Below, piece after piece: positions 20,582 through 64,000 of a stretch of 64,000 bases of DNA. The translations under genes were made by a program, and so were the position numbers. Position 1 is the first letter of the stretch. Each line of letters begins with the position of its first letter. This DNA comes from Myxococcota bacterium (GTDB taxonomy: Bacteria > Myxococcota_A > UBA9160 > UBA6930), in the NCBI GenBank assembly GCA_028277885.1, contig JANQFK010000022.1, positions 176,052-240,051 on the forward strand. Reading direction: 5' to 3'. The notes under the pieces were generated by a model. That model saw only the letters and a list, made by a program, of their open reading frames with translations, made no database searches and was not told where the DNA came from.

Positions 20582-21280
20582 ATGGCGGCGTCCCGAGGCC
20601 ACGGCTGGTGGCCCTACCTGGGCCCCTACGGCCTGTTCCTGATCCTGGTCGAGATCGGCAGCCGCACGCCGGAGTCCGCGGCCGGCGCGATGCTGCTCGT
20701 GAAGGTGCTGCTCCCCGGCGCCCTGGTGCTCCACTTCGCCCGACGCGGCGACTACCCGGAGCTGAGCGGCTACCGACCCGGCGCGGCCGGCTTCGCGGCC
20801 GACGTGCTGTGCGGCCTGGTCATCACGGCGCTCTGGATGGGCCCGTTCCTGCTGCTTCCGGGCCTCGAGCGCGGCGCGCCCGAGGACGCCTTCGACCCCG
20901 CCGGCTTCGCGCCGCTGGGCGCCGGGGTCGCCCTCGGCGTGCGCCTGCTGGGCTTCGGGGTGGTGACGCCCTTCGTCGAGGAGCTCTTCGTGCGCAGCTT
21001 CGTGATCCGGCTGGTCGACGTGATCGACACCGGCGAGGACTTCCGCAGCGTCCCCATCGCCCGCTTCACCTGGCGGAGCTTCGTCATCACCGCCGTCTGG
21101 TTCACCTTCACCCACGTGCCCTGGGAGTGGGGCGTGGCCGCCGTCGCGGGCGTGGTGTTCAACCTCTGGCTCTACCAGCGCCGCCACATCGGCTCCCCCA
21201 TCGTCGCCCACGCCGTCGCCAACGCCTCCATCTGGGCGATCGTGGTCCTGGGCCCAGGCGACCTGTGGGTATTCCTGTAG
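20582..21280 (+). CDS. CPBP-family intramembrane glutamic endopeptidase (CAAX protease-related)
   Basis: 232-aa polytopic protein with motifs PFVEELFVRSF, FTFTHVP and VAHAVANASIW. Confidence 0.9.
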   Translation: MAASRGHGWWPYLGPYGLFLILVEIGSRTPESAAGAMLLVKVLLPGALVLHFARRGDYPELSGYRPGAAGFAADVLCGLVITALWMGPFLLLPGLERGAPEDAFDPAGFAPLGAGVALGVRLLGFGVVTPFVEELFVRSFVIRLVDVIDTGEDFRSVPIARFTWRSFVITAVWFTFTHVPWEWGVAAVAGVVFNLWLYQRRHIGSPIVAHAVANASIWAIVVLGPGDLWVFL

Positions 21281-21326
21281 AACCCACTTCTGCCCGCAGC
21301 CGTCGCCGGGATGCTACTAGGGCAGA

Positions 21327-21342
21327 GGCCCCGCGCGGGGCC
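21327..21342. repeat. perfect 16-nt palindrome GGCCCCGCGCGGGGCC between convergent genes (possible bidirectional terminator stem, no U-tract)
   Basis: Read directly in the 174-bp gap between 20582-21280 (+) and 21455-21856 (-). Confidence 0.5.
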
Positions 21343-21454
21343 GCGCGCCAGACGCGTGATCCCTCCGCGCGCGAAGCGTCTCGGAAGGCAAGCCCGCCAT
21401 GGGCGGGCGCGCAGCGCCGGCCCGCCTCCGGCGGGCTGGCGCGAAGTCCAGAAG

Positions 21455-21856
21455 TCACGCCGCGCCGCGGTGGCCGATGCGGACGCGCTTCGAGAGCTCG
21501 GTGATGTCGACCACGCTCTTGTGGACGGCCTCGGGGTTGCGCTCCCGGCAGGCGAGGGCGAGCTCGTGGGCCGCCACGGCGAGGGGCTCGTAGCCGAGCT
21601 CGGAGGACTCGTCGCCGAAGGCCACGGCCGCGGCCTCGAGCGGGGCGAGGGCCCCCTCGGCCTCCAGGTCCTGGAGGCCGTCCACGCGATCGCCCAGGGC
21701 GAACACGAAGGCGTCGATGCGCTCCTCGAGCTCGGGATCGTCGGCGCGGGTCGAGGCGATGGGCTTGGGCGCGGGACCGATCACCCCGCTCGTATCGACC
21801 GCTGGCGCCCCGGCCTGAACGCGGGCTGCGACGCCGCTCGAAGGCTGACGCCCCAA
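21455..21856 (-). CDS. hypothetical small acidic helical protein (weak HPt-like resemblance)
   Basis: Very high GC3 in this frame. Sequence DDPELEERIDAFVFALGDRVDGLQDLEAEG...AVAAHELALACRERNPEAV. Start uncertain (TTG 21856 or GTG 21784). Confidence 0.5.
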   Translation of the reverse strand: MGRQPSSGVAARVQAGAPAVDTSGVIGPAPKPIASTRADDPELEERIDAFVFALGDRVDGLQDLEAEGALAPLEAAAVAFGDESSELGYEPLAVAAHELALACRERNPEAVHKSVVDITELSKRVRIGHRGAA

Positions 21857-21889
21857 GCCCCCGGGACTAGGGCGAAAACCGGACCGGTC

Positions 21890-22513
21890 TCAGCGGAGCC
21901 CGAACTGCACCAGGTCGAGGTCCAGGCGGTCGCCGGCGGGCGCCTCGAGGGCCAGGGTGAGGCGCCTCCGGTCGCCGAAGCCGGCCAGCCGGCGGTAGGC
22001 GTCGGTGCCCCGCTTCACCACCGCGAAGCGGGCCGTCCCGCCGGCGAAGTCGACCTCCCGCGGTGGCTCGCCGTCCTCGCCGCCGACGCGCAGGCGCCCG
22101 CGCTTCACGCGGAACTCGAAGGCGCCCTCGCGGCGCAGCACGTCCTGGAAGTCGCGCTCGGCATTGTCCGGGCGCGAGATCCCCTCCAGGTGGTAGTAGA
22201 GGCTCCCCAGGGCGTTGGGCTGGGGCCGGGCGTTCTCGTCCGTGCAGCGGGTCCCGCCGGGGATCTCGAGGTCGAAGAGCTGGACCCGGGCGGTGAGGGG
22301 CCGGACGTGGCGCGGGCCCGGCGCGATCAGCACCCGCCGCAGCCCGCGGTGGGCGACGCCTTCGATGGTGCAGACCAGCGGCGCGCGCCAGTCGCCGCGG
22401 GTCCAGCCGAGAGCCAGCATGTTGAGGTCGCGCGGCGGCTCCCCGGGGCGCTGTCCCAGCGAGCCCAGTCCCAGCAGCAGCACGAGGAGCGCGAGGGGTG
22501 CGCGGGCGGGCAT
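21890..22513 (-). CDS. secreted hypothetical protein
   Basis: ATG start, signal peptide MPARAPLALLVLLLGLGSLG, protein-like composition and high GC3. Confidence 0.75.
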   Translation of the reverse strand: MPARAPLALLVLLLGLGSLGQRPGEPPRDLNMLALGWTRGDWRAPLVCTIEGVAHRGLRRVLIAPGPRHVRPLTARVQLFDLEIPGGTRCTDENARPQPNALGSLYYHLEGISRPDNAERDFQDVLRREGAFEFRVKRGRLRVGGEDGEPPREVDFAGGTARFAVVKRGTDAYRRLAGFGDRRRLTLALEAPAGDRLDLDLVQFGLR

Positions 22514-22617: not shown

Positions 22618-22908
22618 GTGCGTTGCTTCGCCTGTGACGCCGCCCACGAGCTCGCGAGCGGGGAGCGGGTGGGCTTCCGAGACGCCTGCTCGGCCTGCGG
22701 CGCGGACCTCCACGTCTGCCGCAACTGCGCCCACCACGACCCCTCGGCCTACAACGAGTGCCGGGAGTCCGGTGCCGAGCGCGTCGCCGACCGCGAGCGC
22801 GCGAACCGCTGCGAGTGGTTCGCGCCCGGGTCCGGGGGCGGAGGCGACGCCGCCGCCGCGCGCGAGTCGGCGAGCCGCTCCCTCGATGCCCTGTTCAAGA
22901 AGCGCTGA
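22618..22908 (+). CDS. small Cys-rich zinc-ribbon-like protein
   Basis: Track ORF 22498..22908 trimmed to GTG 22618. Begins VRCFACDAAHE..CSACGADLHVCRNCAHHD..YNECRE..NRCEWF. Stop lies 1 nt before the PPTase start. Confidence 0.6.
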   Translation: MRCFACDAAHELASGERVGFRDACSACGADLHVCRNCAHHDPSAYNECRESGAERVADRERANRCEWFAPGSGGGGDAAAARESASRSLDALFKKR

Positions 22909-22909
22909 C

Positions 22910-23629
22910 GTGGAGGTGCTGCCCGCCGACGAGGTCCACGTCTGGTGGGCGCCGCTCCCGGAGACCGAGGCCCGGGAGAGCTGGGAGCTGCTCTCCGAGG
23001 CGGAGCGCGAGCGCGCCCGCCGCTTCCGCTTCCCGCGCCACCGCCGGGCCTTCGTCGCCTCTCACGCCATGGTGCGCACCACGCTCTCCCGCTACGCCGC
23101 CGTCTCGCCCGCCGCCTGGGAGTTCGTCGCCGAGCGGCGCGGGCGGCCCCGGGTGGCGGGCCCCGCCGGCGCCGCCCGGCCGCGCTTCAACCTCTCCCAC
23201 AGCGACGCTCTCGCCGCCTGCGCGGTGGCGGCCGAGCTCGACGTCGGCGTGGACGTCGAGGGAGCGGCCCGCGTCCGCCACGCCCTCGAGATCGCCGAGC
23301 GCTACTTCACCCGCGGCGAGGCCGAGGCGCTTCGCGACCTCGAGGGTGCGGCCCGGGTGGCGCGCTTCCTCGACCTCTGGACGCTCAAGGAGGCCTACGT
23401 GAAGGCGCGCGGCGACGGGCTCGCCCTGCCGCTCGACGGGATGGGGTTCGCACCCGGCGCCGACCGGGTGGCCGTGGCGTTCCAGCCCGGCCTGCGGGAC
23501 GAGCCGGGCCACTGGCAGTTCGCCCTCGAGGAGCCCGTGACGGGCCAGCGCCTCGCGCTGGCGGTGCACCGGCCGGGACGGCCCGACGTCGCCGTGCGGC
23601 TGCGCCGGGCCGGGCCGCTCGCGGGCTGA
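22910..23629 (+). CDS. Sfp-type 4'-phosphopantetheinyl transferase
   Basis: Last 239 aa of track ORF 21311..23629, GTG start at 22910. Motifs FNLSHSD, GVDVE and WTLKEAYVKARG. Confidence 0.9.
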   Translation: MEVLPADEVHVWWAPLPETEARESWELLSEAERERARRFRFPRHRRAFVASHAMVRTTLSRYAAVSPAAWEFVAERRGRPRVAGPAGAARPRFNLSHSDALAACAVAAELDVGVDVEGAARVRHALEIAERYFTRGEAEALRDLEGAARVARFLDLWTLKEAYVKARGDGLALPLDGMGFAPGADRVAVAFQPGLRDEPGHWQFALEEPVTGQRLALAVHRPGRPDVAVRLRRAGPLAG

Positions 23630-23691: not shown

Positions 23692-24387
23692 ATGGAGGAG
23701 GGGATGGGGGTCGACTACCGGGCCAAGGACACCTGGACGGTCTTCAAGATCATGGGCGAGTTCGTGGAGGGCTTCGAGACCCTCCGCCCCATCTGGCCCT
23801 CGGTCTCGATCTTCGGCAGCGCACGCCTCGAGCCCGGTGACCGCTACTACCAGGAGGGCGTCCGGGTGGGCGAGGAGCTCTCCAAGGCGGGCTTCTCGAT
23901 CATCACCGGCGGCGGGCCCGGGGTGATGCGGGCCGCGAACGAGGGCGCCAAGGCCGGCAAGGGGCGCTCCATCGGGCTCCACATCAAGCTGCCCGAGGAG
24001 CAGGCCCCCAACGACGCCACGGACATCCAGATCCAGTTCGACTACTTCTTCGCCCGCAAGGTGATGTTCGTGAAGTACGCCTGCGGGTTCGTGGCGCTGC
24101 CCGGCGGCTTCGGCACCCTGGACGAGGTCTTCGAGGCCCTCACCCTGATCCAGACCAACAAGGTGCACGACTTCCCGGTGATCCTGTTCGGCTCGGAGTT
24201 CTGGGCCGGCCTCGTGGGATGGCTCGAGAAGCAGCCCCTCGCCCAGGCGATGATCTCCCAGCGCGACCTCGAGCTGTTCCAGGTGACCGACGACGTGGAC
24301 GAGGTGGTGGAGGTGATCCAGCGCCACTTCGAGCGCCGCCGCCAGCGCCGGGGGCCCGTCCAGTCCCGAGGGCACGAGACCCCCTAG
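23692..24387 (+). CDS. LOG-family nucleotide phosphoribohydrolase (TIGR00730-like)
   Basis: Last 231 aa of track ORF 22945..24387, ATG at 23692. Motifs ITGGGPGVMRAANEGA and PGGFGTLDEVFE. Confidence 0.92.
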   Translation: MEEGMGVDYRAKDTWTVFKIMGEFVEGFETLRPIWPSVSIFGSARLEPGDRYYQEGVRVGEELSKAGFSIITGGGPGVMRAANEGAKAGKGRSIGLHIKLPEEQAPNDATDIQIQFDYFFARKVMFVKYACGFVALPGGFGTLDEVFEALTLIQTNKVHDFPVILFGSEFWAGLVGWLEKQPLAQAMISQRDLELFQVTDDVDEVVEVIQRHFERRRQRRGPVQSRGHETP

Positions 24388-24405: not shown

Positions 24406-26178
24406 TTGAGCCTCACCCTTCGAGCAGCACGTGAGCTCCGCGGAGCGGTGGGGGGCGGTCTCGCCGCAGCGGCGATCGGCGCCGGCTGGGCGGCGGGCTA
24501 CGGGCTGCCCGGGAGCGCGATCGCGGCGTCGGCGGGCCTCCACGGCGTCGCCGGTCTCGCGCTGGGTGCGCTCCTCGGCCGGCTCCACCCGGCCCTGGCC
24601 GCGGTGGCGGCCGCCGTGCTGTTCGCCGCGCTGCCGGCGGGCTGGGCGGCGCTCACCGCGGCGCCCGAGGCGAGCGCGCCGCTCGCGCCGCGCCCGGTGG
24701 CGAAGGCCGAGCCCCGGGACGCGACGGCGCGGCGCGTGGCCGTGATCGGGCTCGACGGCGCGGACTGGCGCGTGATCGACCCGCTGCTCGCCGCGGGCGA
24801 GCTTCCCCACCTGCGCGCGCTCCTGGCGCGCGGGCGCGGCTGGGTGCTGCGCTCCACCGACCCCAGCAGCTCGCCGGTGGTGTGGACGTCGATCTTCTCG
24901 GGCAAGCCGCCCGAGGCCCACGGCATCACGGACTGGGACTCGTCCCGCGCCGACAACCGGCGGGCGGCGCTGCTCTGGGAGCTGCTGGCCGGGGCCGGCC
25001 TGCGCTCGGTGGTGGTGAACGTGCCCGGCAGCTGGCCGCCCACGGCCGTGGACGGCGCCTTCGTGTCGGGCTTCCCGATGCCCTCGCCGCTGCTGCCCGC
25101 CTCGGCCGAGACCGGCTTCCAGAACCTCGGCACCCTGGTGGACCCCGAGGCCCGTGCGGCGACGCTGACGGTGGTGGGCGCGCGGGACGGCCGCGCCGAC
25201 GTGAGCCTCGGCCGTCTGGCGCCGCGCGCCCGGGGCAGCCTGCGCCACCCGCTGTTCGAGACGCGCGCGGCCCGGCGCTGGCTTCCCGCCCGGTCCCTGG
25301 AGACCGAGGTCGCGCTGGCCAACGGCAGCGCGCCGCCGCCGGGCGAGTGGTCCCACTGGCACCACCACGCCGAGGCCGGCGTGGCCCTCGTGTACCGCAT
25401 GCACCGCCTGGCGGACTCCCGCCTGTGGCTCACGCCGGCCTTCCAGGACCCGGCGCGGCCGTCCCTGGTCTTCACCAACGCGCCCTGGGTCGCCGAGGCG
25501 CTGGCCGCGAACGGGCCCTACGTGGTGGAGGGAGCCGGCTGGCGGCTCGCCGCGGAGCCCGCGCTGCGCACCACCCTGGTCGAGCACCTCGAGCAGGTCG
25601 AGGCGCGCCATCGGCGCGCCGCCGAGACGCTGCTGGCGGCGGTTCCCGACTGGCGGCTCTTCGCCCACGTCATCACCCTGCCGGACCGGGTCTCCCACGC
25701 GTTCTGGCGCTTCCACGCGCCCTCGGACTACCCGGCCGCGGAGCCCGGCGAGGCCGCCGCCCAGGCCGAGCGGGTGCGCGAGGCCTACCGGGTGGCCGAC
25801 GTCCACCTCGGCGCGCTGCTGGCCCGGGTGGACGACGGCGAGACCCTGATCGTGGTGCCGAGCGACCACGGCTTCCAGTCGAATCCGCCGGAGTGGGGCA
25901 ACCATCGCGACGCCGGCATCCTGGTGCTGGCCGGGCCGGGCGTGGGCCATCGGCCCGAGCGCGGCGAGCGCTCGATCTACGACGTGACGCCGCTGGCCCT
26001 GGCGGCCCTCGGGCTACCGGTGGCGTCGGACATGGTGGGCGAGGTGCCGGGCGGCCTGGCCGCGGCCGACACCGTGCGCCGGATCGCCAGCTACGAGCGC
26101 GGCGCGGCCCCCGCGGCCGGCGCCCGCATCGACGAGACCACCACCGAGCAGCTGCGCAGCCTCGGCTACGTGGAGTGA
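24406..26178 (+). CDS. membrane-anchored alkaline-phosphatase-superfamily enzyme (type I phosphodiesterase/NPP-like)
   Basis: N-terminal TM helices. Motifs VIGLDGADW, SSSPVVWTSIFSGKPPEAHGI and VVPSDHGF. C-terminal tail is EQLRSLGYVE*. Confidence 0.85.
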   Translation: MSLTLRAARELRGAVGGGLAAAAIGAGWAAGYGLPGSAIAASAGLHGVAGLALGALLGRLHPALAAVAAAVLFAALPAGWAALTAAPEASAPLAPRPVAKAEPRDATARRVAVIGLDGADWRVIDPLLAAGELPHLRALLARGRGWVLRSTDPSSSPVVWTSIFSGKPPEAHGITDWDSSRADNRRAALLWELLAGAGLRSVVVNVPGSWPPTAVDGAFVSGFPMPSPLLPASAETGFQNLGTLVDPEARAATLTVVGARDGRADVSLGRLAPRARGSLRHPLFETRAARRWLPARSLETEVALANGSAPPPGEWSHWHHHAEAGVALVYRMHRLADSRLWLTPAFQDPARPSLVFTNAPWVAEALAANGPYVVEGAGWRLAAEPALRTTLVEHLEQVEARHRRAAETLLAAVPDWRLFAHVITLPDRVSHAFWRFHAPSDYPAAEPGEAAAQAERVREAYRVADVHLGALLARVDDGETLIVVPSDHGFQSNPPEWGNHRDAGILVLAGPGVGHRPERGERSIYDVTPLALAALGLPVASDMVGEVPGGLAAADTVRRIASYERGAAPAAGARIDETTTEQLRSLGYVE

Positions 26179-26853
26179 GGCGCCGGCGCCGGCGGTCTCC
26201 TCCGCCGGACCCTCGGTGGGCCAGCGCTCGCCGATCAGCGGGTCGAGGGAGAGCGCGAAGGAGAGCAGCCGGCTGCGCGCGGCCTCGGTCTCGCCGGAGC
26301 GCAGCGGCGTGCTCAGCCGGATGAGCGCGCCGTCGGCGCGGCCCTCGAGCAGGCGCCCGGCCAGGCGGTCGAGGTTCTGGTCGATACCGCCCAGCATGCC
26401 GGTGCGGCGGTGGGAGCGGTACCAGAACAGCACCAGGCGCCGCTCGCGGTCGCGCTCCACCACGTACTCGTTCATGGCGAGCTCGCCCTGCGGGTCGGCG
26501 CGCACCACCCGGGACTCGGGGATCCCCCAGCCCGCGCCGGTGTAGCAGCCCCGGGGCGTGTGCTCGGGACGGCCGCCGCGGCCGGTGCCGTAGTAGCCGA
26601 GGTAGAGCCACACGACGCCGCCCTCGGAGCTCCGGTAGGCGCGCTGGAGGTTGAAGTCGGCGCGCAGCGCGTTCTCCACCACGGAGTCGATGGGCAGGTC
26701 CTCGGAGCGCCAGCCGTCGATCTCGCGGGGCAGGGTGGCGAGCGCGCTGGCGTCGACCACCGGCGCGCCGCGCAGGGTGAGGGCCCAGGCGAGGGCGCCC
26801 ACGGCCACCAGGACCGCACACAGCAGCGCGGTGGAGAGCTGGTCGCGGCTCAC
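26014..26853 (-). CDS. EpsI-family protein (exosortase-associated periplasmic domain)
   Basis: Part of track ORF 26014..27684. GTG 26853 forms a GTGA overlap with the upstream stop. N-terminal TM helix, then LPREIDGWRSEDLP..LQRAY..VWLYLGYYG..EHTPRGCYTGAGW..LVLFWYRSHRR..GRADGALIRLSTP. Confidence 0.8.
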   Translation of the reverse strand: MSRDQLSTALLCAVLVAVGALAWALTLRGAPVVDASALATLPREIDGWRSEDLPIDSVVENALRADFNLQRAYRSSEGGVVWLYLGYYGTGRGGRPEHTPRGCYTGAGWGIPESRVVRADPQGELAMNEYVVERDRERRLVLFWYRSHRRTGMLGGIDQNLDRLAGRLLEGRADGALIRLSTPLRSGETEAARSRLLSFALSLDPLIGERWPTEGPAEETAGAGASLHVAEAAQLLGGGLVDAGAGRGGRAALVAGDPAHGVGRGQAARHLAHHVRRHR

Positions 26854-32254: not shown

Positions 32255-32472
32255 TCCCGAGGGCGGGGCGCGGTAGCCCACCCGGGCTGCGGCGTTGCTC
32301 CCGCGCCCGGGCCCTCTACGTTGGCCGGAAATCGTCGCTGCGGGTTCCGCCTCCGCCCCGATTCTTCCGATACGCATGGGAGGACCGGAGGCCCGGCGGC
32401 GGGCATCCACACGGTCCGGAGGGCCCGGGAACGCAGCGCCCGGGGAGCCTAGGAGTGGGGGCGAACGGCAGC

Positions 32473-38388
<5,916 letters not shown>

Positions 38389-42224: not shown

Positions 42225-42286
42225 GTCTCTCCGCCGACCCGGGAGCCTATCGTGGCCGGGGCGGGAATGGGACCGGGAGGCCCGCC

Positions 42287-45880: not shown

Positions 45881-45882
45881 GG

Positions 45883-49668: not shown

Positions 49669-49675
49669 GTGCGCG

Positions 49676-56960: not shown

Positions 56961-56973
56961 GGATCGCCGCGGG

Positions 56974-57002
56974 GTTAGCATGGCGCCGGGGCCGGTGCTA
57001 AC
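56974..57002. repeat. inverted repeat GTTAGCA-N15-TGCTAAC centred in a 54-bp divergent intergenic gap
   Basis: Read directly. The repeat centre (56988) coincides with the midpoint between the two divergent start codons (56960 and 57015). Confidence 0.6.
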
Positions 57003-57014
57003 TCCTGCGCGGCC

Positions 57015-57986: not shown

Positions 57987-57992
57987 GCCGGC

Positions 57993-59135
57993 CTAGTTGG
58001 TGATCAGGAACGGACGACCGGGCGCCGACAGCGGCCCATCGCCCGGCGGCGGGCTCGCCGGCGGGGGCGTGGCGCCGCCGAAGCCCATGGCGGCGCACGA
58101 GGCCGGCTCGGAGCCGGAGGTCGCGTGGATGTTGTCCTGGTAGATGTACGCCGTCGACGGACCCTGGTACGTGTTGTTGTGGTAGTTGTTGAACACGAAG
58201 CGGTCCAGCGGACCCGTGCCGTCGCGCAGCCCGGTCAGGTTCGCCCCCTCGACGTGGATCAGCAGCCGGTCGTTGTGCCAGACGCGGATGCGCGCGTTCG
58301 AGGTGCCCCAGCCGTCGATGTGGAAGGAGCGGCAGCCCCAGGACCCGATGGGGTGGTCGGACTCGGAGTAGTCCGAGGCCAGGGGCGACAGGTGGAAGGT
58401 GTTGTTCGAGCCCTGGACGCCCCGCAGCACCGTGCCGAAGCAGCTGCCGCCGGCGCAGTTGCCGTCGGGGACCCCGATGCTCATGGCGCGCGGCATCCAG
58501 CTCGACATGGCGGGCGGCGGGTTGGGCGACATCGGGGCGTTGCCCCAGATGTTGTTGGTGTTGCAGCCGAGCAGGCAGTGCAGGCCGTTGCCGAACTCGT
58601 TGGTCTTGATCGGACCGCCGCGGTTCACGAAGTTCGACGAGTACTTGTACACGTAGGTGTACCCGATCGTCCGGGAGGCGCGGGAGAAGCGCGCGTCGCC
58701 GAGCAGGCCGCCGTAGCGACCGGGGCGGAACTTCAGGCCGAGGGCGTTGTTGCCGTCGAACACGCAGTCGCCGTCGGGGCTGTCGCAGGCGCCGGGCTGC
58801 ACCACGTTCACGCACTTGAAGCCCTCGGCGCCCTCGACGTTGCGGCTGCCCTGGGCGGCGCTCCAGCACTCGTTGGTCTGGCCGCCGTACTTCTGGAACC
58901 AGCCGCTGTCGCCCTTGTCGCCGCCCTGGGGCCCGCGGCTGAAGTTCAGCGACGGGTCCTCGAAGTCCTCGCAGAAGAGGACGTTCGGGTCGTAGAGGGC
59001 GTCCTGGGGGTTCTGGACCCGGTCGCAGTAGCAGTTCTGGCCGGCCGTACACGGAGCGGCGCCGGCGGCGTCGGCCGCGAAGAGCGCGGCCACGGCCGTC
59101 AGGAGCAAGGCGCCGGGGAGCGAGGCGAGACGCAT
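57993..59135 (-). CDS. secreted Cys-rich protein, concanavalin-like / polysaccharide-lyase-like fold (family uncertain)
   Basis: Track ORF 57993..60734 trimmed to ATG 59135, preceded by GGAAGGG. Signal peptide MRLASLPGALLLTAVAALFAADAAGA. Lower GC. Motifs SFHIDGWGTSNARIRVWHNDRLL and FVFNNYHNNTYQG..YIYQDNIH. Confidence 0.8.
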   Translation of the reverse strand: MRLASLPGALLLTAVAALFAADAAGAAPCTAGQNCYCDRVQNPQDALYDPNVLFCEDFEDPSLNFSRGPQGGDKGDSGWFQKYGGQTNECWSAAQGSRNVEGAEGFKCVNVVQPGACDSPDGDCVFDGNNALGLKFRPGRYGGLLGDARFSRASRTIGYTYVYKYSSNFVNRGGPIKTNEFGNGLHCLLGCNTNNIWGNAPMSPNPPPAMSSWMPRAMSIGVPDGNCAGGSCFGTVLRGVQGSNNTFHLSPLASDYSESDHPIGSWGCRSFHIDGWGTSNARIRVWHNDRLLIHVEGANLTGLRDGTGPLDRFVFNNYHNNTYQGPSTAYIYQDNIHATSGSEPASCAAMGFGGATPPPASPPPGDGPLSAPGRPFLITN

Positions 59136-59236
59136 GAGATGAGCCCTTCCGATCGTACGCCGGAGGGATCGAGTCCCCCCGGCTCTCGAGACGGCCGGAG
59201 GATCGGTGGAGAAGCCCACAACCTCTGTGATGGGGG

Positions 59237-60637
59237 TCACCCCGCACCCCTTTCTGCGCGGTCCTGAGGGGTTCTTCCGACCGAAGGCCCCCCGCGAGGG
59301 GCCGGCAACGCCCGGATCAGCCGGAGCTTGCCCGAAGCCTCGCGCTCCAGCCCGCCCACGGTCTCGGTGGCCACCTCGAAGCGCTCCCCGCTCTCCCGGG
59401 CGAGGCGCCGGGCCAGGGTGGCGCCGTCCTCCTCCCGGTACCCGGGCCCGGGCACGATCCGCACCCGGAGCCGGTCCGGGCGCTCCTGGACGAACTGGGC
59501 CTGGAGGATCGGCATCCCGGCGTCTCGGGCCTCCTCGAGGTGGTAGAGGAAGAACTCGCCGTGGAAGCGCCGGCCGTCGGCGGCCTCGACGAAGTCGTAG
59601 GCCCGTCCGAACACCTCCCGGAAGGCCGGCAGCCCGCGGCCGCAGGCGCAGCCCGCGGCGGGCACCACCCGGTCTCCCACGTCGTATCGCAACAACGGCG
59701 TGGCGCGATTGTGAAGATCCGTCAACACGAGGCGGTGGGCGTCGGGCCGGCTCTCGGTGGGGTCGGGGATCAGCTCCACCCAGAGGTTCTCGGCCATCAG
59801 GTGCAGGGTTCCCCGCTCGCACTCGTACAGGATCGCCCCGACCTCGCCGCAGCCGTACTCGTTGTAGACCGGTGCGCCGAAGGCGGCGCAGATCCGCTCG
59901 CGGTCGCCCGGGGCCAGCACCTCGGAGGTGGTCACCACGGCGCCCACGCCGAGGGCCTCGAGGGGCAGCTTCTCCTCGCGACAGAAGTCGGCGAACTGCA
60001 CCAGCATGGAGACGTAGCCGTAGGCCCAGGCCGGTCGGCTCTCGACCAGACGCCGGTAGTAGCCGCGCAGGTCCTCCCGCGAGAACGCGAAGGCGGAGAA
60101 GCGGTCGCGGTTCAGCACCCAGTCGATGGCGCGGAAGCGCAGCCGCGCCCGGGCGCCGAGGGCCGTGCCCCAGAAGCGCGCCTGGCGGTCGCCGGGACGC
60201 ACGCCGTACCAGCCGTAGCTGCGCCAGGAGGCGGCCTGCTCGGCCGCCGTGGCGCTGCGGTCCTTCTTGAGCCGCACCGGGACGCCCAGGGAGCCGCCCG
60301 TGGTCTTCCAGCTGTAGGTGCCGGGCCAGCGGGCCACGTCGATGGCGGCGGCGTGCTCGACGAGATCCGGCTTGGTGAGCAGCGGGAGCCGCGTGAGGTC
60401 CCCGGCGTCGGCGCGCTCGGCGTCGAGGCCGGCCTCGCGTCCCAGGGCGGCGTAGTGGCGGCTGTGGCGCAGGGCGTGGCGCAGGATGCGCCCGAGGGCG
60501 TCCTCCTGGAGCCGGCGCAGCTCGGCCTCGCTCCACCACTGGGAGGCCTCGTAGCGCCGCAGCAGCCCGAACACCCGCTCGCCCCGCAGCCAGGTCGCGG
60601 GGCGGTAGACGAGGTTGCGGGCCAGCCACGCGTTCAC
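59237..60637 (-). CDS. adenylate-forming enzyme, PaaK/CapK (F390-synthetase-like) family
   Basis: Track ORF 59237..61558 trimmed to GTG 60637 (GTGA overlap). Motifs SWKTTGGSLGVP, YNEYGCGE, RYDVGD and SGKLRLI. Confidence 0.85.
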   Translation of the reverse strand: MNAWLARNLVYRPATWLRGERVFGLLRRYEASQWWSEAELRRLQEDALGRILRHALRHSRHYAALGREAGLDAERADAGDLTRLPLLTKPDLVEHAAAIDVARWPGTYSWKTTGGSLGVPVRLKKDRSATAAEQAASWRSYGWYGVRPGDRQARFWGTALGARARLRFRAIDWVLNRDRFSAFAFSREDLRGYYRRLVESRPAWAYGYVSMLVQFADFCREEKLPLEALGVGAVVTTSEVLAPGDRERICAAFGAPVYNEYGCGEVGAILYECERGTLHLMAENLWVELIPDPTESRPDAHRLVLTDLHNRATPLLRYDVGDRVVPAAGCACGRGLPAFREVFGRAYDFVEAADGRRFHGEFFLYHLEEARDAGMPILQAQFVQERPDRLRVRIVPGPGYREEDGATLARRLARESGERFEVATETVGGLEREASGKLRLIRALPAPRGGPSVGRTPQDRAERGAG

Positions 60638-61812
60638 GGGCTCTCCACGGCGCGGACCAGCCGCTCGGCGTCGTAGCGCCACGCGTAGGTGGTCTCGGCG
60701 GCCTTGCGGGCGCGCTCGCGCATCTCGCGGGCACCCACGGGATCGTCGAGGACGGCGGCCACCGCCCGCGCCAGGTCGCCCGGGTCGCCGCCGCGGAAGG
60801 TCCGGCCGGAGCCCGTCTCCTCGAGGACGCGCACCATGGGCGGGGCGTCGCTCGCCACCACGGGGAGCCCCACCGCCATGTACTCGAAGAGCTTGTTGGC
60901 GAGGGTGTGGTCGATGTGGGAGCAGCGATGGAAGGGCAGCAGGCCGACGTCCGCGGCGGCCCACAGGGCGGGGAGATCCTCGTAGGGGCGCGCGCCCGCC
61001 AGGCGCACCCGCGCCTCCAGGCCCAGCCGGCGCCGGCTCTCCTCGAGGGCGCGCCGCACCTTGCCGTCTCCGACGATCAGCAGCGACGCCTCGCGTCCGG
61101 TCTCGAGCAGGCGCGCCAGGGCCTGCATCGCCACCTCGAGCCCGCGGTCGCCGGCCAGGATGCCGGTGAAGAGCAGGCAGGCCGCGTCGGCATCGGGCTC
61201 GACGGCGAGGGGCCGCTCCGCCAGCCGGCGGACGCGATCGAGCTCCGGCGTGTTGCGCACCAGGGTCCAGCGACCCTCGGGCAGGCCGCAGCGCTCGAGG
61301 CGCTCGCCGGCCTCCTCGGCCACCACCAGCACCCGGCTCGCCCGGCGCATCAGCCAGCGCTCCACCGCCTCGGCGAGGCGCGGGCTGCGCACCGTCGCGG
61401 CCACGCCGCGCACGTCGCCGAAGCGGCGCATGCTGCGCAGGGCCTCGGGGTAGGGCTCGGCCAGGTCCAGGATCGAGGGCACCCCGAGCCGCCGGGCCAG
61501 CCACACGCCGAGGGGCGCGAGGGGGAGGTCGCGCACCACGATCCGGTCCGGCCGGCACTCCCGGGCCGCGGCCACGGCGGCCGCCGCCCAGTGGGGCTGG
61601 AAGAAGAACGGCATGCCGATCAGCGGCTCGAGGGGGCCGGGGTGGGGCAGGCGGCGGATCTCGACACCTCCGAGCCGCTCCCGGCGCGGCCGTTTCTGGC
61701 GGTTGCGGGCCAGGAGGGTTACTTCATGACCAGCCCGCTCGAACGCGTGGAGAAACTTCTCCACGCGAACGTCCCAGGGGTAGTCGCCGTCGAAGATCTT
61801 CAGGATTCGCAT
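60634..61812 (-). CDS. GT4 glycosyltransferase
   Basis: Track ORF 60634..61893 trimmed to ATG 61812 (MRILKIFDGDYPWD). Motif NKLFEYMAVGLPVVAS. Confidence 0.9.
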   Translation of the reverse strand: MRILKIFDGDYPWDVRVEKFLHAFERAGHEVTLLARNRQKRPRRERLGGVEIRRLPHPGPLEPLIGMPFFFQPHWAAAAVAAARECRPDRIVVRDLPLAPLGVWLARRLGVPSILDLAEPYPEALRSMRRFGDVRGVAATVRSPRLAEAVERWLMRRASRVLVVAEEAGERLERCGLPEGRWTLVRNTPELDRVRRLAERPLAVEPDADAACLLFTGILAGDRGLEVAMQALARLLETGREASLLIVGDGKVRRALEESRRRLGLEARVRLAGARPYEDLPALWAAADVGLLPFHRCSHIDHTLANKLFEYMAVGLPVVASDAPPMVRVLEETGSGRTFRGGDPGDLARAVAAVLDDPVGAREMRERARKAAETTYAWRYDAERLVRAVESP

Positions 61813-61824
61813 CAGCGGACCGAT

Positions 61825-61840
61825 CGCTCGGGGGTCCCGG
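61825..61840 (+). repeat. conserved intergenic motif, weaker copy C (CGCTCGGGGGTCCCGG)
   Basis: Shares CGCT..CGGGGGTCCCG with copy A. Lies in the divergent gap, about 85 nt upstream of the SGNH start at 61923. Confidence 0.35.
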
Positions 61841-61922
61841 GCCCGGCTCCCGAAGCGCCCCGTGCGCCCGCGGGGAGGCCTGCCGGCGCCCATTGAGCGC
61901 GCCCCGAGCTACTGGATCGGAA

Positions 61923-63023
61923 ATGGCGGAGCAGAGTGAACCCCAATTCGGACTCGCCAAGTCGCTGCTCTACAGCTCCTTGCTCATCTTCCTGGTCTTC
62001 GGGCTGGCCGAGTGCTCGGTCCGGACCTGGGCCCACTACTACCGGGAGAGCGCCCAGAAGTTCGACCCGGAGGCCGGGACCTACGTGCTCGTCCCCGGTC
62101 GGCATCGCACCCCCCGCGGGGTCCTCGTCATCAATTCTAGGGGATTCGTGGGCGCCGAGCTGGAGCCCCCTGGGGACGATCTTTGGCGCGTCGTGGCCGT
62201 GGGCGACTCCTGCACCTTCGGCGGCGGCGACGACGTGGACACCTACCCCGCGATGCTGGACGTGCGCCTGGACGGCCGCGAGGCCCCGGGGCGGCGCTAC
62301 GAGGTGGTGAACCTCGGCATCTCCGGCCTCGACTCGGGCCTGGCCCTGCGGCGCTTCCGCAGCGAGGCCCCGCCCCTCGAGCCCGACGTGGTCACCATCT
62401 ATCTCGGCTGGAACGACCTGATGAAGTCGGACCCGCTCGGGCAGAGCCGCAGCAGCCGCTGGTCCGGCGCGGCGGGCCTGCTCGACCGGCTCTGGCTCGC
62501 GAAGGGCCTGCGCAAGCTGCTGTTCTTCCACGTGCGGCCGCGGCTGCGCCCGCCGGCCACCGGGCCCGAGAGCCGCACGGGCCGGTTCGCCGGCTTCCGC
62601 CCCGACGTCTACGAGGAGAACCTGACCACGCTCGTGGGCGAGGTGCGCGAGCTCGGCGCGCGACCGCTGCTCGTCACCCTGCCGACGGTGGTGCGCCCGG
62701 ACATGGACGTCGCCGCGCTCCGCGAGGCGCGCGTGGTGTTCCCGTACTTCCCCTCCGCCTACGCGGTGGGCGACTTCCTCGACCTGCTCGCCGCCTACAA
62801 CCGCGCCATCGAGCGCGTCGCCCTGGTGGAGCAGGTCCCGGTGGTGGACCTGGCGGCGCGCTTCGAGGAGCTTCCCGACCCTCGCCCCTACTTCTACGAC
62901 ACCATGCACACCAACAGCGACGGCATGGCGCGGATCGCGGCGGTCCTCGAGGAGGGCCTGGCGGCCGAGGGGCTCCTCGCACCGTCGGCCGCCCTGGCGC
63001 GCGACGCCCGGCACGCGGACTAG
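61923..63023 (+). CDS. SGNH/GDSL hydrolase
   Basis: Track ORF 61893..63023 trimmed to ATG 61923. N-terminal TM helix. Motifs AVGDSCTFG, NLGISGLDS, GWNDL and DTMHTN. Confidence 0.85.
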   Translation: MAEQSEPQFGLAKSLLYSSLLIFLVFGLAECSVRTWAHYYRESAQKFDPEAGTYVLVPGRHRTPRGVLVINSRGFVGAELEPPGDDLWRVVAVGDSCTFGGGDDVDTYPAMLDVRLDGREAPGRRYEVVNLGISGLDSGLALRRFRSEAPPLEPDVVTIYLGWNDLMKSDPLGQSRSSRWSGAAGLLDRLWLAKGLRKLLFFHVRPRLRPPATGPESRTGRFAGFRPDVYEENLTTLVGEVRELGARPLLVTLPTVVRPDMDVAALREARVVFPYFPSAYAVGDFLDLLAAYNRAIERVALVEQVPVVDLAARFEELPDPRPYFYDTMHTNSDGMARIAAVLEEGLAAEGLLAPSAALARDARHAD

Positions 63024-63028
63024 GCGCC

Positions 63029-64000
63029 GTGTGCGGAATCGCCGGAGTGCTCCACGCCGACCGCGACCATCCGGTCGGCGAGGCTCGCCTCGCCGGGATG
63101 GTGTCCCGCCTGCGCCACCGGGGGCCCGACGACGATGGCAGCTTCCGCGAGGGCCCGTGCGGCCTGGTGCACACGCGCCTCGCGGTGCTGGACCCGACGC
63201 CCCGCGCCCACCAGCCCATGGCGAGCGCCGACGGACGCTTCGTCCTCACCTACAACGGCGAGATCTACAACTTCCGGGAGCTGCGCGACGAGCTGCGCGC
63301 AGCGGGCCACGAGTTCCGCACCGGGAGCGACACCGAGGTGATCCTCGAGCTGGCGAGCCGCGGCGGAGCCGCCGCGCTGGAGCGCCTCGAGGGCATGTTC
63401 GCCTTCGCGCTCTACGACCGCGAGCTCGGCGAGCTGATGCTGGTGCGCGACCGCACCGGCATCAAGCCGCTGTTCTGGGTCCAGGACGAGGAGGGGATCG
63501 AGTTCGCCTCGGAGCCCAAGGCCCTGGCGCGGGGCGCCCGGGGCGCATCCCCGGACGCCGCGCGCATCGCCGAGTACCTGGCCTTCCGGCACCTCGCCGA
63601 GGAGGAGTGCCTGGCGCCGGGCGTGCGCACCCTGCCGCCCGGCCACCGGCTGGTGACGAACGGCCGCAAGCGCGTCGTCGAGGCCTGGTGGAGGCCGGAC
63701 TTCGCGGGCCGCGCCGACGGCCGGGACACCGATGCGATCGTGGCCCGGGCCGTGGAGCGGCAGCTCGTGAGCGACGTGCCCGTGGGCACGTTCCTCTCCG
63801 GGGGCGTCGACTCGGCGCTGGTGACCGCGGCGGCGAGCGAGGTCCTGGACGGGCTCGACACCTTCACCGTGGGCTTCCCGGATCCCGAGTGGGACGAGAC
63901 CTCCCGGGCGGCCCACGTCTCCGGGCGTCTCGGCGTGCGGGCCCACGTGATCGGACTGGAGCCCGCGGAGTACGTCGCCGCCCTGGGCGAGGCGGTCTGG
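63029..64000 (+). CDS. asparagine synthase (glutamine-hydrolysing)-family amidotransferase, N-terminal part (runs off right edge)
   Basis: Not in the track because there is no stop in the window. GTG 63029 is followed by CGIAG (N-terminal nucleophile Cys). Motifs HRGPDD, YNGEIYNFRELR, SDTEV and LSGGVDSA. Confidence 0.9.
   Translation, partial: MCGIAGVLHADRDHPVGEARLAGMVSRLRHRGPDDDGSFREGPCGLVHTRLAVLDPTPRAHQPMASADGRFVLTYNGEIYNFRELRDELRAAGHEFRTGSDTEVILELASRGGAAALERLEGMFAFALYDRELGELMLVRDRTGIKPLFWVQDEEGIEFASEPKALARGARGASPDAARIAEYLAFRHLAEEECLAPGVRTLPPGHRLVTNGRKRVVEAWWRPDFAGRADGRDTDAIVARAVERQLVSDVPVGTFLSGGVDSALVTAAASEVLDGLDTFTVGFPDPEWDETSRAAHVSGRLGVRAHVIGLEPAEYVAALGEAVW

What the first reader, a model, noticed from the sequence alone, without database searches (positions are those of the whole stretch)
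20582..64000. Exosortase-system accessory gene set dispersed through the locus, with no canonical exosortase or PEP-CTERM substrate visible
As I recall the TIGRFAMs/Haft descriptions of PEP-CTERM/EpsH (XrtA) loci, hallmark neighbours are EpsI, a CAAX-protease-related protein and a FemAB-related protein. Others are a locus-specific polysaccharide deacetylase, GT4 'sugar transferases' and an AsnB-type amidotransferase. The XrtA subtype adds an acyl-CoA ligase, an ACP and 'hydrolase 1' and 'hydrolase 2'. This window contains look-alikes of nearly all of these. They are CPBP (20582-21280), EpsI (26014-26853), FemAB-like (45883-46986), WalW-type deacetylase (46983-47981) and two alpha/beta hydrolases (38399-40095). 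It also has four GT4 genes and AsnB (63029 onward). I found no protein ending in a PEP-TM-basic sorting signal, no PrsK/PrsR, and only a degenerate exosortase-like gene (50866-51669). This could be a variant, possibly non-sorting, derivative of the exosortase-associated EPS machinery.
Basis: partly seen in the sequence, partly recalled or inferred. Interest (0 to 1): 0.65.

Follow-up and report, generated by a model that had tools for sequence, protein, structure and literature searches.

The report
Cysteine-less exosortase paralog with EpsI
This stretch of an uncultured Myxococcota genome is a large sugar-polymer gene cluster whose "degenerate exosortase" belongs to a conserved, unnamed family of exosortase look-alikes that lack the catalytic residues and pair with EpsI, while a normal exosortase sits elsewhere on the same contig.

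Summary
The CPBP protease (TIGR03008, 97 vs 81 bits) and EpsI (TIGR02914, 104 vs 43) pass. The two hydrolases have hydr2_PEP and hydr1_PEP as best hits but score below cut-off. The FemAB-like, GT4 and AsnB genes are generic, and the "WalW deacetylase" matches nothing.

The 267-aa "degenerate exosortase" is not decayed. It belongs to a family of at least 369 clusters, homologous to exosortases (hhalign 93.6%; 70 of 122 members hit PF09721; AF2 pLDDT 94). The family has lost the Cys-x-Gly cysteine, the Asn-x-x-Arg arginine and the histidine: 0 of 122 members keep Cys, and most have Asp there. In 80 related Myxococcota loci this gene lies directly beside EpsI in 31 and within 10 kb in 17 more. 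It also occurs fused to GT4, Wzx or CE4 domains.

The "no canonical exosortase" reading holds only inside the window. A full-motif exosortase (P0321) is recorded on a contig of the same length (409,809 bp), so very likely the same contig, and from the same sample. Related loci carry canonical exosortases and bona fide PEP-CTERM proteins.

Best reading: a sorting-competent lineage with a non-catalytic exosortase paralog tied to polysaccharide assembly.

The parts
50866..51669 (-). Cys-less exosortase paralog ('Xrt-like', 267 aa): E-G-G in place of C-S-G, Q..A in place of N..R, and no conserved His
   Evidence: Family of 369 clusters. 70 of 122 members hit PF09721. hhalign against canonical exosortases gives Prob 93.6%, E 2e-7, with E179 aligned to the catalytic Cys. 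0 of 122 members have Cys at that column. AF2 pLDDT 94.1.
51647..52732 (-). CE4 polysaccharide deacetylase directly upstream of the Xrt-like gene, overlapping it by 23 nt
   Evidence: Pfam Polysacc_deac_1 62.3 bits. The same gene order occurs as one fused protein, P0124.
26014..26853 (-). Stand-alone EpsI (DUF3485), 279 aa with a C-terminal extension of about 60 aa
   Evidence: TIGR02914 103.8 > 42.8. PF11984 142.7. 60-76% identical homologs of 217-227 aa occur in Myxococcota MAGs.
26850..28082 (-). VanZ-like multi-pass membrane protein (410 aa), start/stop-overlapped with EpsI
   Evidence: Pfam VanZ 33 bits. The same VanZ->EpsI pair occurs in L008/L009. An Xrt-like/GT4 fusion followed by VanZ occurs in L010.
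20582..21280 (+). CPBP/Rce1-like intramembrane protease of the PEP-CTERM-associated type
   Evidence: TIGR03008 pepcterm_CAAX 97.1 > 81.05. The ortholog in L022 (86.7 bits) lies next to a PEP-CTERM protein.
19731..20510 (+). Signal peptide + DUF4124 + 4-TM protein in the slot upstream of the CPBP gene; it has no PEP motif
   Evidence: Pfam DUF4124; sequence read. In L022 this slot holds a PEP-CTERM protein.
21455..22513 (-). Two conserved hypothetical genes (109 aa at 21455-21784 and 207 aa at 21890-22513) that travel with CPBP and LOG
   Evidence: phmmer finds them in 11 and 8 of the 80 related loci. No family match.
22886..23629 (+). Sfp/HetI-type 4'-phosphopantetheinyl transferase
   Evidence: NCBIfam HetI-like 138 bits, below cut-off. 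Syntenic in L008 and L010.
23692..24387 (+). LOG/TIGR00730-family Rossmann protein
   Evidence: TIGR00730 145.9 > 96.35. Found next to EpsI in 14 of 80 loci.
24448..26178 (+). Alkaline-phosphatase-superfamily phosphodiesterase-like membrane protein
   Evidence: Pfam Phosphodiest 76.8 bits.
28184..32147 (+). SGNH esterase (28184-29404), Wzx-type flippase (29401-30960) and GT4 (30957-32147)
32455..38388 (+). Type I PKS (KS-AT-KR-DH-AMP_C fragment-carrier domain), 1977 aa
   Evidence: Pfam domains and NCBIfam. It occupies the slot that holds ACP + acyl-CoA ligase in L012.
38399..40095 (+). Two alpha/beta hydrolases: hydr2_PEP-like (38399-39205) then hydr1_PEP-like (39202-40095)
   Evidence: Best NCBIfam hits 107 and 111 bits, below the cut-offs of 202.75 and 168.45. 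The same pair in the same order occurs in L012.
40103..46986 (.). GT4 (40103-41221 +), GT2 (41211-42224 -), Acetyltransf_6/BspF-like (42287-43573 +), cupin/JmjC (43570-44433 +), MurJ/Wzx-like (44426-45880 +), FemAB-like (45865-46986 +)
46983..50806 (+). Unknown 332-aa protein (46983-47981), LMW-PTP Wzb (47978-48553), membrane GT2 (48550-49668), DegT aminotransferase (49676-50806)
   Evidence: The LMWPTP-GT2-DegT block is conserved beside the Xrt-like gene in L012, L017, L018 and L028.
52858..63023 (.). SGNH (52858-53943), CE4 (53940-54749), Acetyltransf_6 (54739-55845), GT4 (55842-56981 -), sulfotransferase (57015-57986), unknown 380 aa (57993-59135 -), CapK/PaaK-like adenylating enzyme (59237-60682 -), GT4 (60634-61893 -), SGNH (61923-63023)
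63029..64000 (+). AsnB-type amidotransferase, cut by the window end
   Evidence: TIGR01536 294.8 > 267.1; eps_aminotran_1 254.5 against 816.9 on about half the protein.

Best explanation
The region is a large biosynthesis island for a decorated polysaccharide or glycolipid, in an uncultured, ~75% GC Myxococcota bacterium. It is of the kind that accompanies PEP-CTERM/exosortase systems.

Its EpsI protein and PEP-CTERM-type CPBP protease are genuine. The exosortase-fold protein in the island (50866-51669) is a member of a conserved, unnamed paralog family. That family has lost the Cys, Arg and His of the exosortase motifs but keeps the fold, the P-x-P motif and a conserved polar site (R98, E142, D/E179-x-G181, Q221). 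In this lineage the paralog, not a canonical exosortase, is the usual genomic neighbour of EpsI.

Inferred mechanism: the paralog is a non-proteolytic membrane partner. Together with EpsI, and often the VanZ-like protein, it would bind a tail or a lipid-linked glycan at the outer face of the inner membrane. This would couple the polysaccharide assembly enzymes (GT4, Wzx, CE4) to the sorting reaction, which a separately encoded canonical exosortase (P0321 in this genome) would carry out on PEP-CTERM proteins encoded elsewhere.

Shown: homology, loss of the motifs, family conservation, gene adjacency and fusions, and a canonical exosortase recorded on a contig of the same length from the same sample. 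Inferred: lack of protease activity, physical partnership, and the coupling role.
For: Homology. The family profile aligns over 225 columns with canonical exosortases (hhalign Prob 93.6%, E 2e-7). It hits the D. vulgaris exosortase at 2.6e-13. 70 of 122 members hit PF09721.

Motif loss. E179 aligns to the Cys of CSG, Q221 to Asn, A224 to Arg and Q245 to His. 0 of 122 members and 0 of 50 locus ORFs have Cys there, and 0 of 122 have the Arg. All 10 lineage canonical exosortases keep C-S-G, N..R and H...G.

Not a pseudogene. There are 369 clusters at E<=1e-3. R98, G181, Q221, W23, W193, P128 and P130 are near-invariant. AF2 gives pLDDT 94.1 and pTM 0.89.

The Cys position is polar but variable (D 79, H 12, Q 8, E 7 of 122, and others), which fits binding better than an obligatory nucleophile.

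Link to EpsI. In the 80 loci the Xrt-like gene is immediately upstream of EpsI in 29, immediately downstream in 2, and within 10 kb in 17 more. The closest relatives L017/L018 have Xrt-like-GT4-EpsI in one run, with LMWPTP/GT2/DegT, LOG, hyp207, hyp109 and CPBP around it.

Link to glycan assembly. Fusions exist with CE4 (P0124), GT4 (P0152, P0148) and Wzx (P0195).

Co-existence with real sorting. P0321 (292 aa, all motifs, TIGR02602 147 > 105.55) is recorded on a 409,809-bp contig, the same length as for all window proteins checked, and comes from the same Logan sample. 10 of 80 loci have a canonical exosortase within a few kb of the Xrt-like/EpsI pair. TIGR02595-positive PEP-CTERM proteins occur in L022, L023, L071 and L078.
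Against: There is no experimental or structural evidence for a complex with the canonical exosortase or with EpsI.

In 28 of 80 loci that have room, no Xrt-like gene lies within 10 kb of EpsI. In the window the two genes are 24 kb apart.

Asp at the former Cys position in 65% of members, together with invariant Gln221 and Arg98, could equally mark a new catalytic site.

Fusions to GT4, Wzx and CE4 point to glycan chemistry and need not involve protein sorting at all.

PEP-CTERM proteins could not be looked for in the source genome outside the window.

Confidence: 0.5

Rival explanations
1. The paralog is an active enzyme with a remodelled site, built around Asp/Glu179, Gln221, Arg98 and Glu142. 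It would act on the lipid-linked glycan or on an acylated intermediate, for example as a polymerase, ligase or transferase of the EPS pathway, and would work independently of protein sorting.
For: The residue at the old Cys position is polar in most members (D/E/H/Q/N in 110 of 122), and Q221 and R98 are near-invariant. Fusions exist to GT4 (twice), Wzx and CE4. No recognisable Wzy polymerase was found in the window among the proteins scanned. The closest relatives place the gene inside a GT operon.
Against: The position-179 residue is not invariant; A, S, Y, R, V, M and L also occur. L013 has a Wzy_C gene two genes upstream of an Xrt-like/GT4 fusion, so the paralog does not generally replace Wzy. 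Its systematic pairing with EpsI, and its proximity to canonical exosortases and PEP-CTERM genes in 10 loci, tie it to the sorting system.
Confidence: 0.3
2. This is an ordinary XrtA/PEP-CTERM locus whose exosortase and substrates merely fall outside the 64-kb window. On this reading the 267-aa gene is an irrelevant relic.
For: A canonical exosortase is recorded on a contig of the same length from the same sample. EpsI and pepcterm_CAAX pass their cut-offs. Top hits of the hydrolases, GT4 genes and AsnB point to XrtA-system families.
Against: P0321 scores 150 against the XrtA cut-off of 208. It is flanked by PilZ/cNMP-binding and QueG-like genes, not EPS genes. The femAB, polyde, stp and hydr1/2 models all fail their cut-offs. 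The 267-aa gene belongs to a large conserved family, and that family is the regular neighbour of EpsI. No PrsK/R/T was found.
Confidence: 0.1
3. This is a true non-sorting derivative. The lineage would have abandoned PEP-CTERM sorting and kept only EPS-related accessory genes plus a dead exosortase.
For: No canonical exosortase, PEP-CTERM protein or Prs regulator occurs in 64 kb. The catalytic motifs are lost.
Against: A canonical exosortase with intact motifs is present in the same genome. Close relatives (EpsI 64% identical) have TIGR02595-positive PEP-CTERM proteins beside the orthologous CPBP gene.
Confidence: 0.1

Closest known systems
Exosortase (EpsH) family, TIGR02602 / PF09721 (Haft et al. 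2006, PMC1569441)
   Same: Homologous over the whole length, with a multi-pass membrane fold, the P-x-P motif and a short beta element before the helix that carries the (former) C-x-G motif. It is encoded next to EpsI and among EPS genes.
   Different: Of the six residues reported as invariant for EpsH homologs (C-x-G, N-x-x-R, H-x3-G), Cys, Asn, Arg and His are replaced (E/D, Q, A, none), Gly181 of C-x-G is kept, and the second Gly is only partly conserved. It scores below every curated exosortase model; the window protein's best hit is XrtW at 16 bits.
XrtA-type PEP-CTERM/EPS locus of Proteobacteria (TIGRFAMs accessory set: EpsI, pepcterm_CAAX, pepcterm_femAB, pepcterm_polyde, hydr1/hydr2_PEP, acyl-CoA ligase + ACP, stp1-3, eps_aminotran_1, PrsK/R/T)
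   Same: EpsI and pepcterm_CAAX pass their cut-offs. A hydr2/hydr1-like pair follows an acyl-carrier function. GT4, CE4, FemAB-superfamily and AsnB genes are present.
   Different: There is no XrtA, no PrsK/R/T and no PEP-CTERM gene in the locus. The femAB, polyde, stp and hydr models fail their cut-offs. The ligase + ACP pair is replaced by a type I PKS. The exosortase-fold gene lacks the catalytic motifs. The lineage is Myxococcota.
Methylobacillus sp. 12S methanolan locus, EpsH-EpsI pair (as summarised in PMC1569441)
   Same: An 8-TM EpsH-like gene lies immediately upstream of epsI within an EPS cluster. This is the arrangement seen for the Cys-less paralog in 29 of 80 related loci.
   Different: Methylobacillus EpsH belongs to the canonical family for which the motifs were defined. 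Here the partner of EpsI lacks them, and in the window the pair is split by 24 kb.
XrtD (VPLPA-CTERM exosortase) with a fused EpsI domain
   Same: The window EpsI aligns to the C-terminal EpsI domain of XrtD (TIGR04152 positions 278-481; plasmid XrtD hits).
   Different: In XrtD the EpsI domain is fused to a catalytic exosortase (CSGLR, N..R). Here EpsI stands alone and associates with a non-catalytic paralog.
Inactive paralogs of intramembrane proteases (for example iRhoms); conceptual analogy from my own knowledge
   Same: The membrane fold and a binding surface are conserved while the catalytic residues are lost, and the paralog co-exists with active relatives.
   Different: No homology. 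No functional data exist for the exosortase paralog.

Membership tests
Canonical exosortase (EpsH, TIGR02602/PF09721) | Detectable homology and a multi-pass membrane fold | tested here: met
   hhalign Prob 93.6%, E 2e-7, 225 columns. The family HMM hits the D. vulgaris exosortase at 2.6e-13. 70 of 122 family members hit PF09721. The AF2 model is all-helical with a short beta element, pLDDT 94.
Canonical exosortase (EpsH, TIGR02602/PF09721) | Invariant Cys-Xaa-Gly motif (PMC1569441) | tested here: not met
   The window protein has E179-G-G181. The family column is D79/H12/Q8/E7 of 122 with C 0 of 122. All 10 lineage canonical exosortases have C-S-G.
Canonical exosortase (EpsH, TIGR02602/PF09721) | Invariant Asn-Xaa-Xaa-Arg motif | tested here: not met
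   Q221-A-V-A224. In the family Gln occurs in 117 of 122 and Arg in 0 of 122.
Canonical exosortase (EpsH, TIGR02602/PF09721) | Invariant His-Xaa3-Gly motif | tested here: not met
   The column aligned to His holds Q245 in the window protein and D/S/T in the family. A neighbouring His occurs in only 39 of 122 members.
Canonical exosortase (EpsH, TIGR02602/PF09721) | Score at or above the curated cut-off of TIGR02602 or of a specific Xrt model | tested here: not met
   The only hit is XrtW at 16.3 bits against 425, and there is no Pfam hit at E<0.01. For contrast, P0321 from the same genome scores 147 > 105.55.
XrtA-type PEP-CTERM/EPS system | XrtA (TIGR03109) present | tested here: not met
   None in the window. 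P0321, recorded on a contig of the same length, scores 150.4 < 208.
XrtA-type PEP-CTERM/EPS system | EpsI (TIGR02914) | tested here: met
   103.8 > 42.8.
XrtA-type PEP-CTERM/EPS system | pepcterm_CAAX (TIGR03008) | tested here: met
   97.1 > 81.05.
XrtA-type PEP-CTERM/EPS system | hydr1_PEP / hydr2_PEP (TIGR03100/03101) | tested here: not met
   111 < 168.45 and 107 < 202.75. They are nonetheless the best hits and lie in a conserved order.
XrtA-type PEP-CTERM/EPS system | pepcterm_femAB (TIGR03019), pepcterm_polyde, stp1-3 glycosyltransferases | tested here: not met
   femAB 25.7 < 260. No pepcterm_polyde hit. stp2/stp3 87-148 < 409-442.
XrtA-type PEP-CTERM/EPS system | eps_aminotran_1 (TIGR03108) | tested here: inconclusive
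   254.5 against 816.9, but only the N-terminal 324 residues lie in the window.
XrtA-type PEP-CTERM/EPS system | PEP-CTERM substrates (TIGR02595) and PrsK/PrsR/PrsT in the genome | not testable with these tools
   None in the 64-kb window. The rest of the source genome could not be read. Relatives L022, L023, L071 and L078 have TIGR02595-positive proteins.

The most novel reading that the evidence does not exclude
Myxococcota carry a distinct, so far unnamed class of 'pseudo-exosortase', with D/E-x-G in place of C-x-G and no Arg or His. On this reading it is the true cognate partner of EpsI. It would work either as the acceptor- or substrate-presenting subunit of a two-component sorting machine together with a canonical exosortase, or as a new glycan-handling activity. 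That would give the first functional handle on EpsI and on how exosortase sorting is coupled to exopolysaccharide assembly.
Probability: 0.45. Interest if true: 0.7.

Novelty: new variant of a known kind. Interest (0 to 1): 0.55.

Why it matters
The biochemistry of exosortases, the acceptor they attach proteins to, and the role of EpsI are, as far as I know, still unresolved. Haft et al. (2006) stated that EpsI had no known function.

A large, conserved family of exosortase-fold proteins has shed the putative catalytic triad yet stays glued to EpsI, to the PEP-CTERM-type CPBP protease and to glycan-assembly enzymes, sometimes by gene fusion. That is a natural separation-of-function experiment. 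It suggests the fold has a binding or scaffolding role distinct from proteolysis, and it names concrete residues (R98, E142, D179, Q221) and partners (EpsI, the VanZ-like protein, GT4/Wzx/CE4) to test.

There is also a practical point. PGAP calls the one member that carries an NCBI name 'hypothetical protein', while Pfam-based pipelines tag many members as Exosortase_EpsH. Both labels mislead, and a dedicated family model would fix that.

Tried and rejected
1. I suspected the 410-aa membrane protein upstream of EpsI (26850-28082) was the hidden exosortase. Rejected: it has a VanZ domain and no hit to the exosortase HMMs.
2. AF2 with only two sequences gave an unusable model (pLDDT 42.6). Repeating with the 122-sequence alignment worked.
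3. The search for related loci on genome contigs failed with the Xrt-like alignments A2 and A3, which have no conserved 7-10-column stretch. I used the EpsI clade alignment instead.
4. Foldseek against afdb50 was unavailable. Foldseek against the PDB gave nothing (best E 0.69), and the PDB sequence search gave nothing. No solved exosortase structure was matched.
5. I tested the 'WalW-type deacetylase' label for 46983-47981. There is no NCBIfam, Pfam or PDB hit and no homolog in the fetched loci, and hhalign against local CE4 sets gave E~0.02. It stays unresolved.
6. I tried to read the source contig beyond the window through the look-up of encoding contigs. Only short Logan contigs were returned, or the product was not on record.
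7. Literature searches for a Cys-less or pseudo-exosortase, or for Myxococcota exosortases, found no description.
8. The pseudogene or sequencing-error explanation for the lost Cys is rejected by family-wide conservation.

Full report
**Gene calling and checking the observation**

The window is about 75% G+C, so plain ORF lists are flooded with spurious frames. I called genes by third-position GC and frame segmentation.

Curated NCBIfam/TIGRFAM models gave the following.
- Passing:
  - the CPBP protease 20582-21280: TIGR03008 pepcterm_CAAX, 97.1 bits against a cut-off of 81.05;
  - EpsI 26014-26853: TIGR02914, 103.8 against 42.8, and Pfam DUF3485/EpsI at 142.7.
- Best hit but below cut-off: the two hydrolases 38399-39205 and 39202-40095. 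Their best hits are hydr2_PEP (107 bits) and hydr1_PEP (111 bits), against cut-offs of 202.75 and 168.45.
- Generic only:
  - The FemAB-like protein scores 25.7 against 260 for pepcterm_femAB. It is one of three Acetyltransf_6/FemAB-superfamily proteins in the window.
  - The four GT4 genes have stp2/stp3 as top hits at 87-148 bits against 409-442.
  - The truncated AsnB passes only the generic asparagine-synthase model.
- No match: the protein called a 'WalW-type deacetylase' (46983-47981) hits nothing in NCBIfam, Pfam or PDB sequences.

No PrsK/R/T, no canonical exosortase and no PEP-CTERM-like tail occur in the window.

**The exosortase-like gene (50866-51669, minus strand, 267 aa)**

On its own the protein gives only a 16-bit hit to XrtW and no Pfam hit. 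The word-indexed search found just one relative. An exhaustive HMMER search with the two-sequence profile found 369 50%-identity clusters at E<=1e-3 and 270 at E<=1e-10, mostly proteins of about 260 aa.

Evidence that this family is homologous to exosortases:
- Of 122 members scanned, 70 hit Pfam Exosortase_EpsH (best E 6.9e-12). Many give weak hits to XrtV, XrtD, XrtW or 8TM_EpsH, and no other family recurs.
- I fetched three canonical exosortases from annotated plasmids: D. vulgaris pDV xrt and two XrtD genes.
  - Profile-profile alignment of the family against them gives Prob 93.6%, E 2e-7 over 225 columns.
  - The family HMM hits the D. vulgaris enzyme at 2.6e-13.
- With the 122-sequence alignment, AlphaFold2 gives a confident model (pLDDT 94.1, pTM 0.89).

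Homology and an intact fold are therefore established.

**Loss of the catalytic motifs**

Haft et al. (2006, PMC1569441) reported six perfectly conserved residues in EpsH homologs, in three motifs: Cys-x-Gly, Asn-x-x-Arg and His-x3-Gly. They proposed Cys, Arg and His as the catalytic triad.

In the hhalign alignment the window protein has:
- E179-G-G181 opposite C-S-G;
- Q221 opposite Asn;
- A224 opposite Arg;
- Q245 opposite His.

Across the family the Cys column is D 79, H 12, Q 8, E 7, with no Cys in 122 members. The Arg column never holds Arg. Gly181, Gln221 and Arg98 are each kept in more than 90% of members, Pro128 and Pro130 are invariant, and Glu142 is kept in 101 of 122. This is the signature of a conserved paralog that has given up thiol catalysis, not of a decaying gene. 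One member that carries an NCBI name (P0148) and two JGI members (P0124, P0128) are called 'hypothetical protein', and no NCBIfam model covers the family.

**Genomic context elsewhere**

Close homologs of the window EpsI (60-76% identical, typically 217-227 aa) are abundant in Myxococcota and 'Deltaproteobacteria' MAGs. A scan of GTDB species representatives with an EpsI-clade alignment returned 80 loci. Most are from uncultured Myxococcota or 'Deltaproteobacteria' MAGs; some records are titled Spirochaetales and one Holophagae. The best match is 66% identical, so the source genome is not itself a representative.

Scanning these loci with the family HMM and a canonical-exosortase HMM showed:
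- 48 of 80 loci carry a Cys-less paralog within 10 kb of EpsI.
- In 29 loci it ends right at the EpsI start, the classic xrt-epsI arrangement. In 2 loci it lies immediately downstream.
- 10 loci also carry a canonical exosortase (C-S-G in all ten, with N..R and His in most) a few kb away. The four of these that were scanned pass TIGR02602 (132-166 against 105.55) but no specific Xrt type.

The closest relatives, L017 and L018, show a compact version of the window's gene set: [DegT, GT2, LMW-PTP] [Xrt-like, GT4, EpsI] [LOG] [hyp207, hyp109] [CPBP]. In the window the same genes are spread out by about 24 kb of extra biosynthetic genes.

Other contigs add more links:
- VanZ-like -> EpsI pairs occur in L008 and L009.
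- An Xrt-like/GT4 fusion is followed by the VanZ-like gene, with AsnB, CE4, PPTase and CPBP nearby (L010).
- An Xrt-like/Wzx fusion is followed by ACP, an acyl-CoA ligase and the hydr2/hydr1-like pair (L012).
- Fusions to CE4 and GT4 exist.

The hydr2/hydr1 pair therefore recurs with a carrier-protein function. In the window that function is supplied by a 1977-aa type I PKS (KS-AT-KR-DH-carrier) together with a PPTase.

**Is this a non-sorting system?**

The evidence says it is not, at least not for the genome or the lineage.

The same kind of regex that found nothing in the window found genuine PEP-CTERM proteins in related loci. [quoted passage not shown] Those in L022, L023, L071 and L078 pass TIGR02595 (17.8-25 against 16). 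In L022 the PEP-CTERM gene sits directly upstream of the orthologous pepcterm_CAAX protease. In the window that slot holds a DUF4124/4-TM protein without a PEP motif.

A profile of the ten lineage canonical exosortases retrieved P0321, a 292-aa protein with YQSHG, FMVPVPP, AEACSG, N..R and H...G motifs.
- Its only contig is 409,809 bp long. That is the same length recorded for every window protein I looked up.
- Its Logan copy comes from the same sample, SRR20820740, as the window's Logan contigs.
- It passes TIGR02602 (147 against 105.55) but not XrtA (150 against 208).
- It is absent from the window and is flanked by a PilZ/cNMP-binding gene and a QueG-like gene.

The source genome therefore very probably has a working exosortase on the same contig, though not in an EPS locus.

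**Interpretation**

The region is a large island for a heavily decorated polysaccharide or glycolipid, of the exosortase-associated kind. Its contents are:
- four GT4 and two GT2 genes, and two Wzx/MurJ-like flippases;
- CE4 deacetylases, SGNH esterases and three Acetyltransf_6/FemAB-like proteins;
- DegT, AsnB, a sulfotransferase and a CapK-like adenylating enzyme;
- a PKS with two hydrolases, and an LMW-PTP;
- upstream, MBOAT and four GT-C/PMT_2-like proteins.

The most distinctive element is the Cys-less exosortase paralog, which in this lineage is the regular neighbour of EpsI.

I favour a non-proteolytic role. The paralog, with EpsI and often the VanZ-like protein, would bind a C-terminal tail or a lipid-linked glycan at the periplasmic face and couple assembly enzymes to the reaction performed by the separately encoded canonical exosortase. 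Three points support this.
- All three putative catalytic residues are lost.
- The residue at the old Cys position is variable although mostly polar.
- The paralog co-exists with canonical enzymes, in the same genome here and adjacent in 10 loci.

The main rival is a re-tooled enzyme acting on the glycan. The Asp preference, the invariant Gln and Arg, and the fusions to GT4, Wzx and CE4 support that reading. I cannot separate the two with the available tools. The descriptive conclusions are well supported, and the mechanism is inference.

**Comparison and novelty**

The locus works like, and is related to, the PEP-CTERM/EpsH systems of Haft et al. (2006). It fails membership of the XrtA type on most specific models, and the paralog fails four of the five membership tests for canonical exosortases, passing only the homology-and-fold test.

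I found no description of a catalytic-motif-less exosortase family in the searchable literature, nor in the curated model libraries. I rate it a new variant of a known kind.

It was right about the accessory flavour of the locus and about the odd exosortase-like gene. It was wrong that the gene is degenerate, and the non-sorting reading is not supported, because the genome very probably carries a canonical exosortase and close relatives carry PEP-CTERM proteins.

Noticed in passing
window 26850-28082 (-); L008 6051-7271; L010 12190-13422: A 406-410-aa VanZ-like multi-pass protein with a central soluble domain. Its gene overlaps EpsI start-to-stop here and in L008/L009, and it directly follows an Xrt-like/GT4 fusion in L010. 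It looks like a third recurrent partner of the system. It has no family assignment beyond the VanZ domain.
   Followed up: partly
window 26014-26200 (-) against 24448-26178 (+): The EpsI ORF is 279 aa against 217-227 aa in relatives. Its last ~60 codons look non-homologous and overlap the convergent phosphodiesterase-like gene by 165 nt.
   Followed up: no
window 32455-38388 (+): The type I PKS has the unusual domain order KS-AT-KR-DH, followed by an AMP-binding_C fragment and a carrier domain. In L012 the same slot, before the hydr2/hydr1-like pair, holds a separate ACP and acyl-CoA ligase. This suggests a swap of the acyl-activating module.
   Followed up: partly
window 19731-20510 (+); L022 3695-4369 (-): The gene slot directly upstream of the pepcterm_CAAX protease holds a bona fide PEP-CTERM protein in L022. 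In the window it holds a signal-peptide + DUF4124 + 4-TM protein with no PEP motif.
   Followed up: partly
window 21455-21784 and 21890-22513 (-): Two small hypothetical proteins (109 and 207 aa) with no family match are conserved next to LOG and CPBP in 11 and 8 of the 80 related loci.
   Followed up: partly
window 57993-59135 (-): A 380-aa protein with no NCBIfam or Pfam match lies in a local GC dip (0.71 against ~0.76). It is also unannotated in the Logan contig.
   Followed up: no
window 2817-18368: Upstream of the finding lie an MBOAT and four large GT-C/PMT_2-like membrane proteins, of which 4105-5766 and 5851-7494 are below the Pfam cut-off. There is also a further 15-TM protein without a family, a sulfatase, a methyltransferase with a weak sub-threshold GT2 match, a 705-aa membrane protein with no Pfam hit, and ManA. 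The glycan island probably starts well before 20582.
   Followed up: partly
window 47978-48553 (+): A Wzb-type LMW protein-tyrosine phosphatase is present, but no Wzc tyrosine kinase, Wza exporter or priming transferase was recognised anywhere in the 64 kb.
   Followed up: no
L024, L026, L029, L035, L040, L042, L044 and others: Several GTDB MAGs that carry this EpsI are titled 'uncultured Spirochaetales/Spirochaetaceae' in their records, and one is titled Holophagae. Most other hits in this EpsI clade are titled Myxococcota or Deltaproteobacteria. These titles may be mislabels, which I did not test.
   Followed up: no
L097 (Logan SRR20820740_9200) 1035-1913: The genome's canonical exosortase P0321 is solitary. 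It lies between a divergent PilZ/cNMP-binding regulator gene and a QueG-like gene, with no EpsI or EPS genes in the 2.5 kb available.
   Followed up: partly
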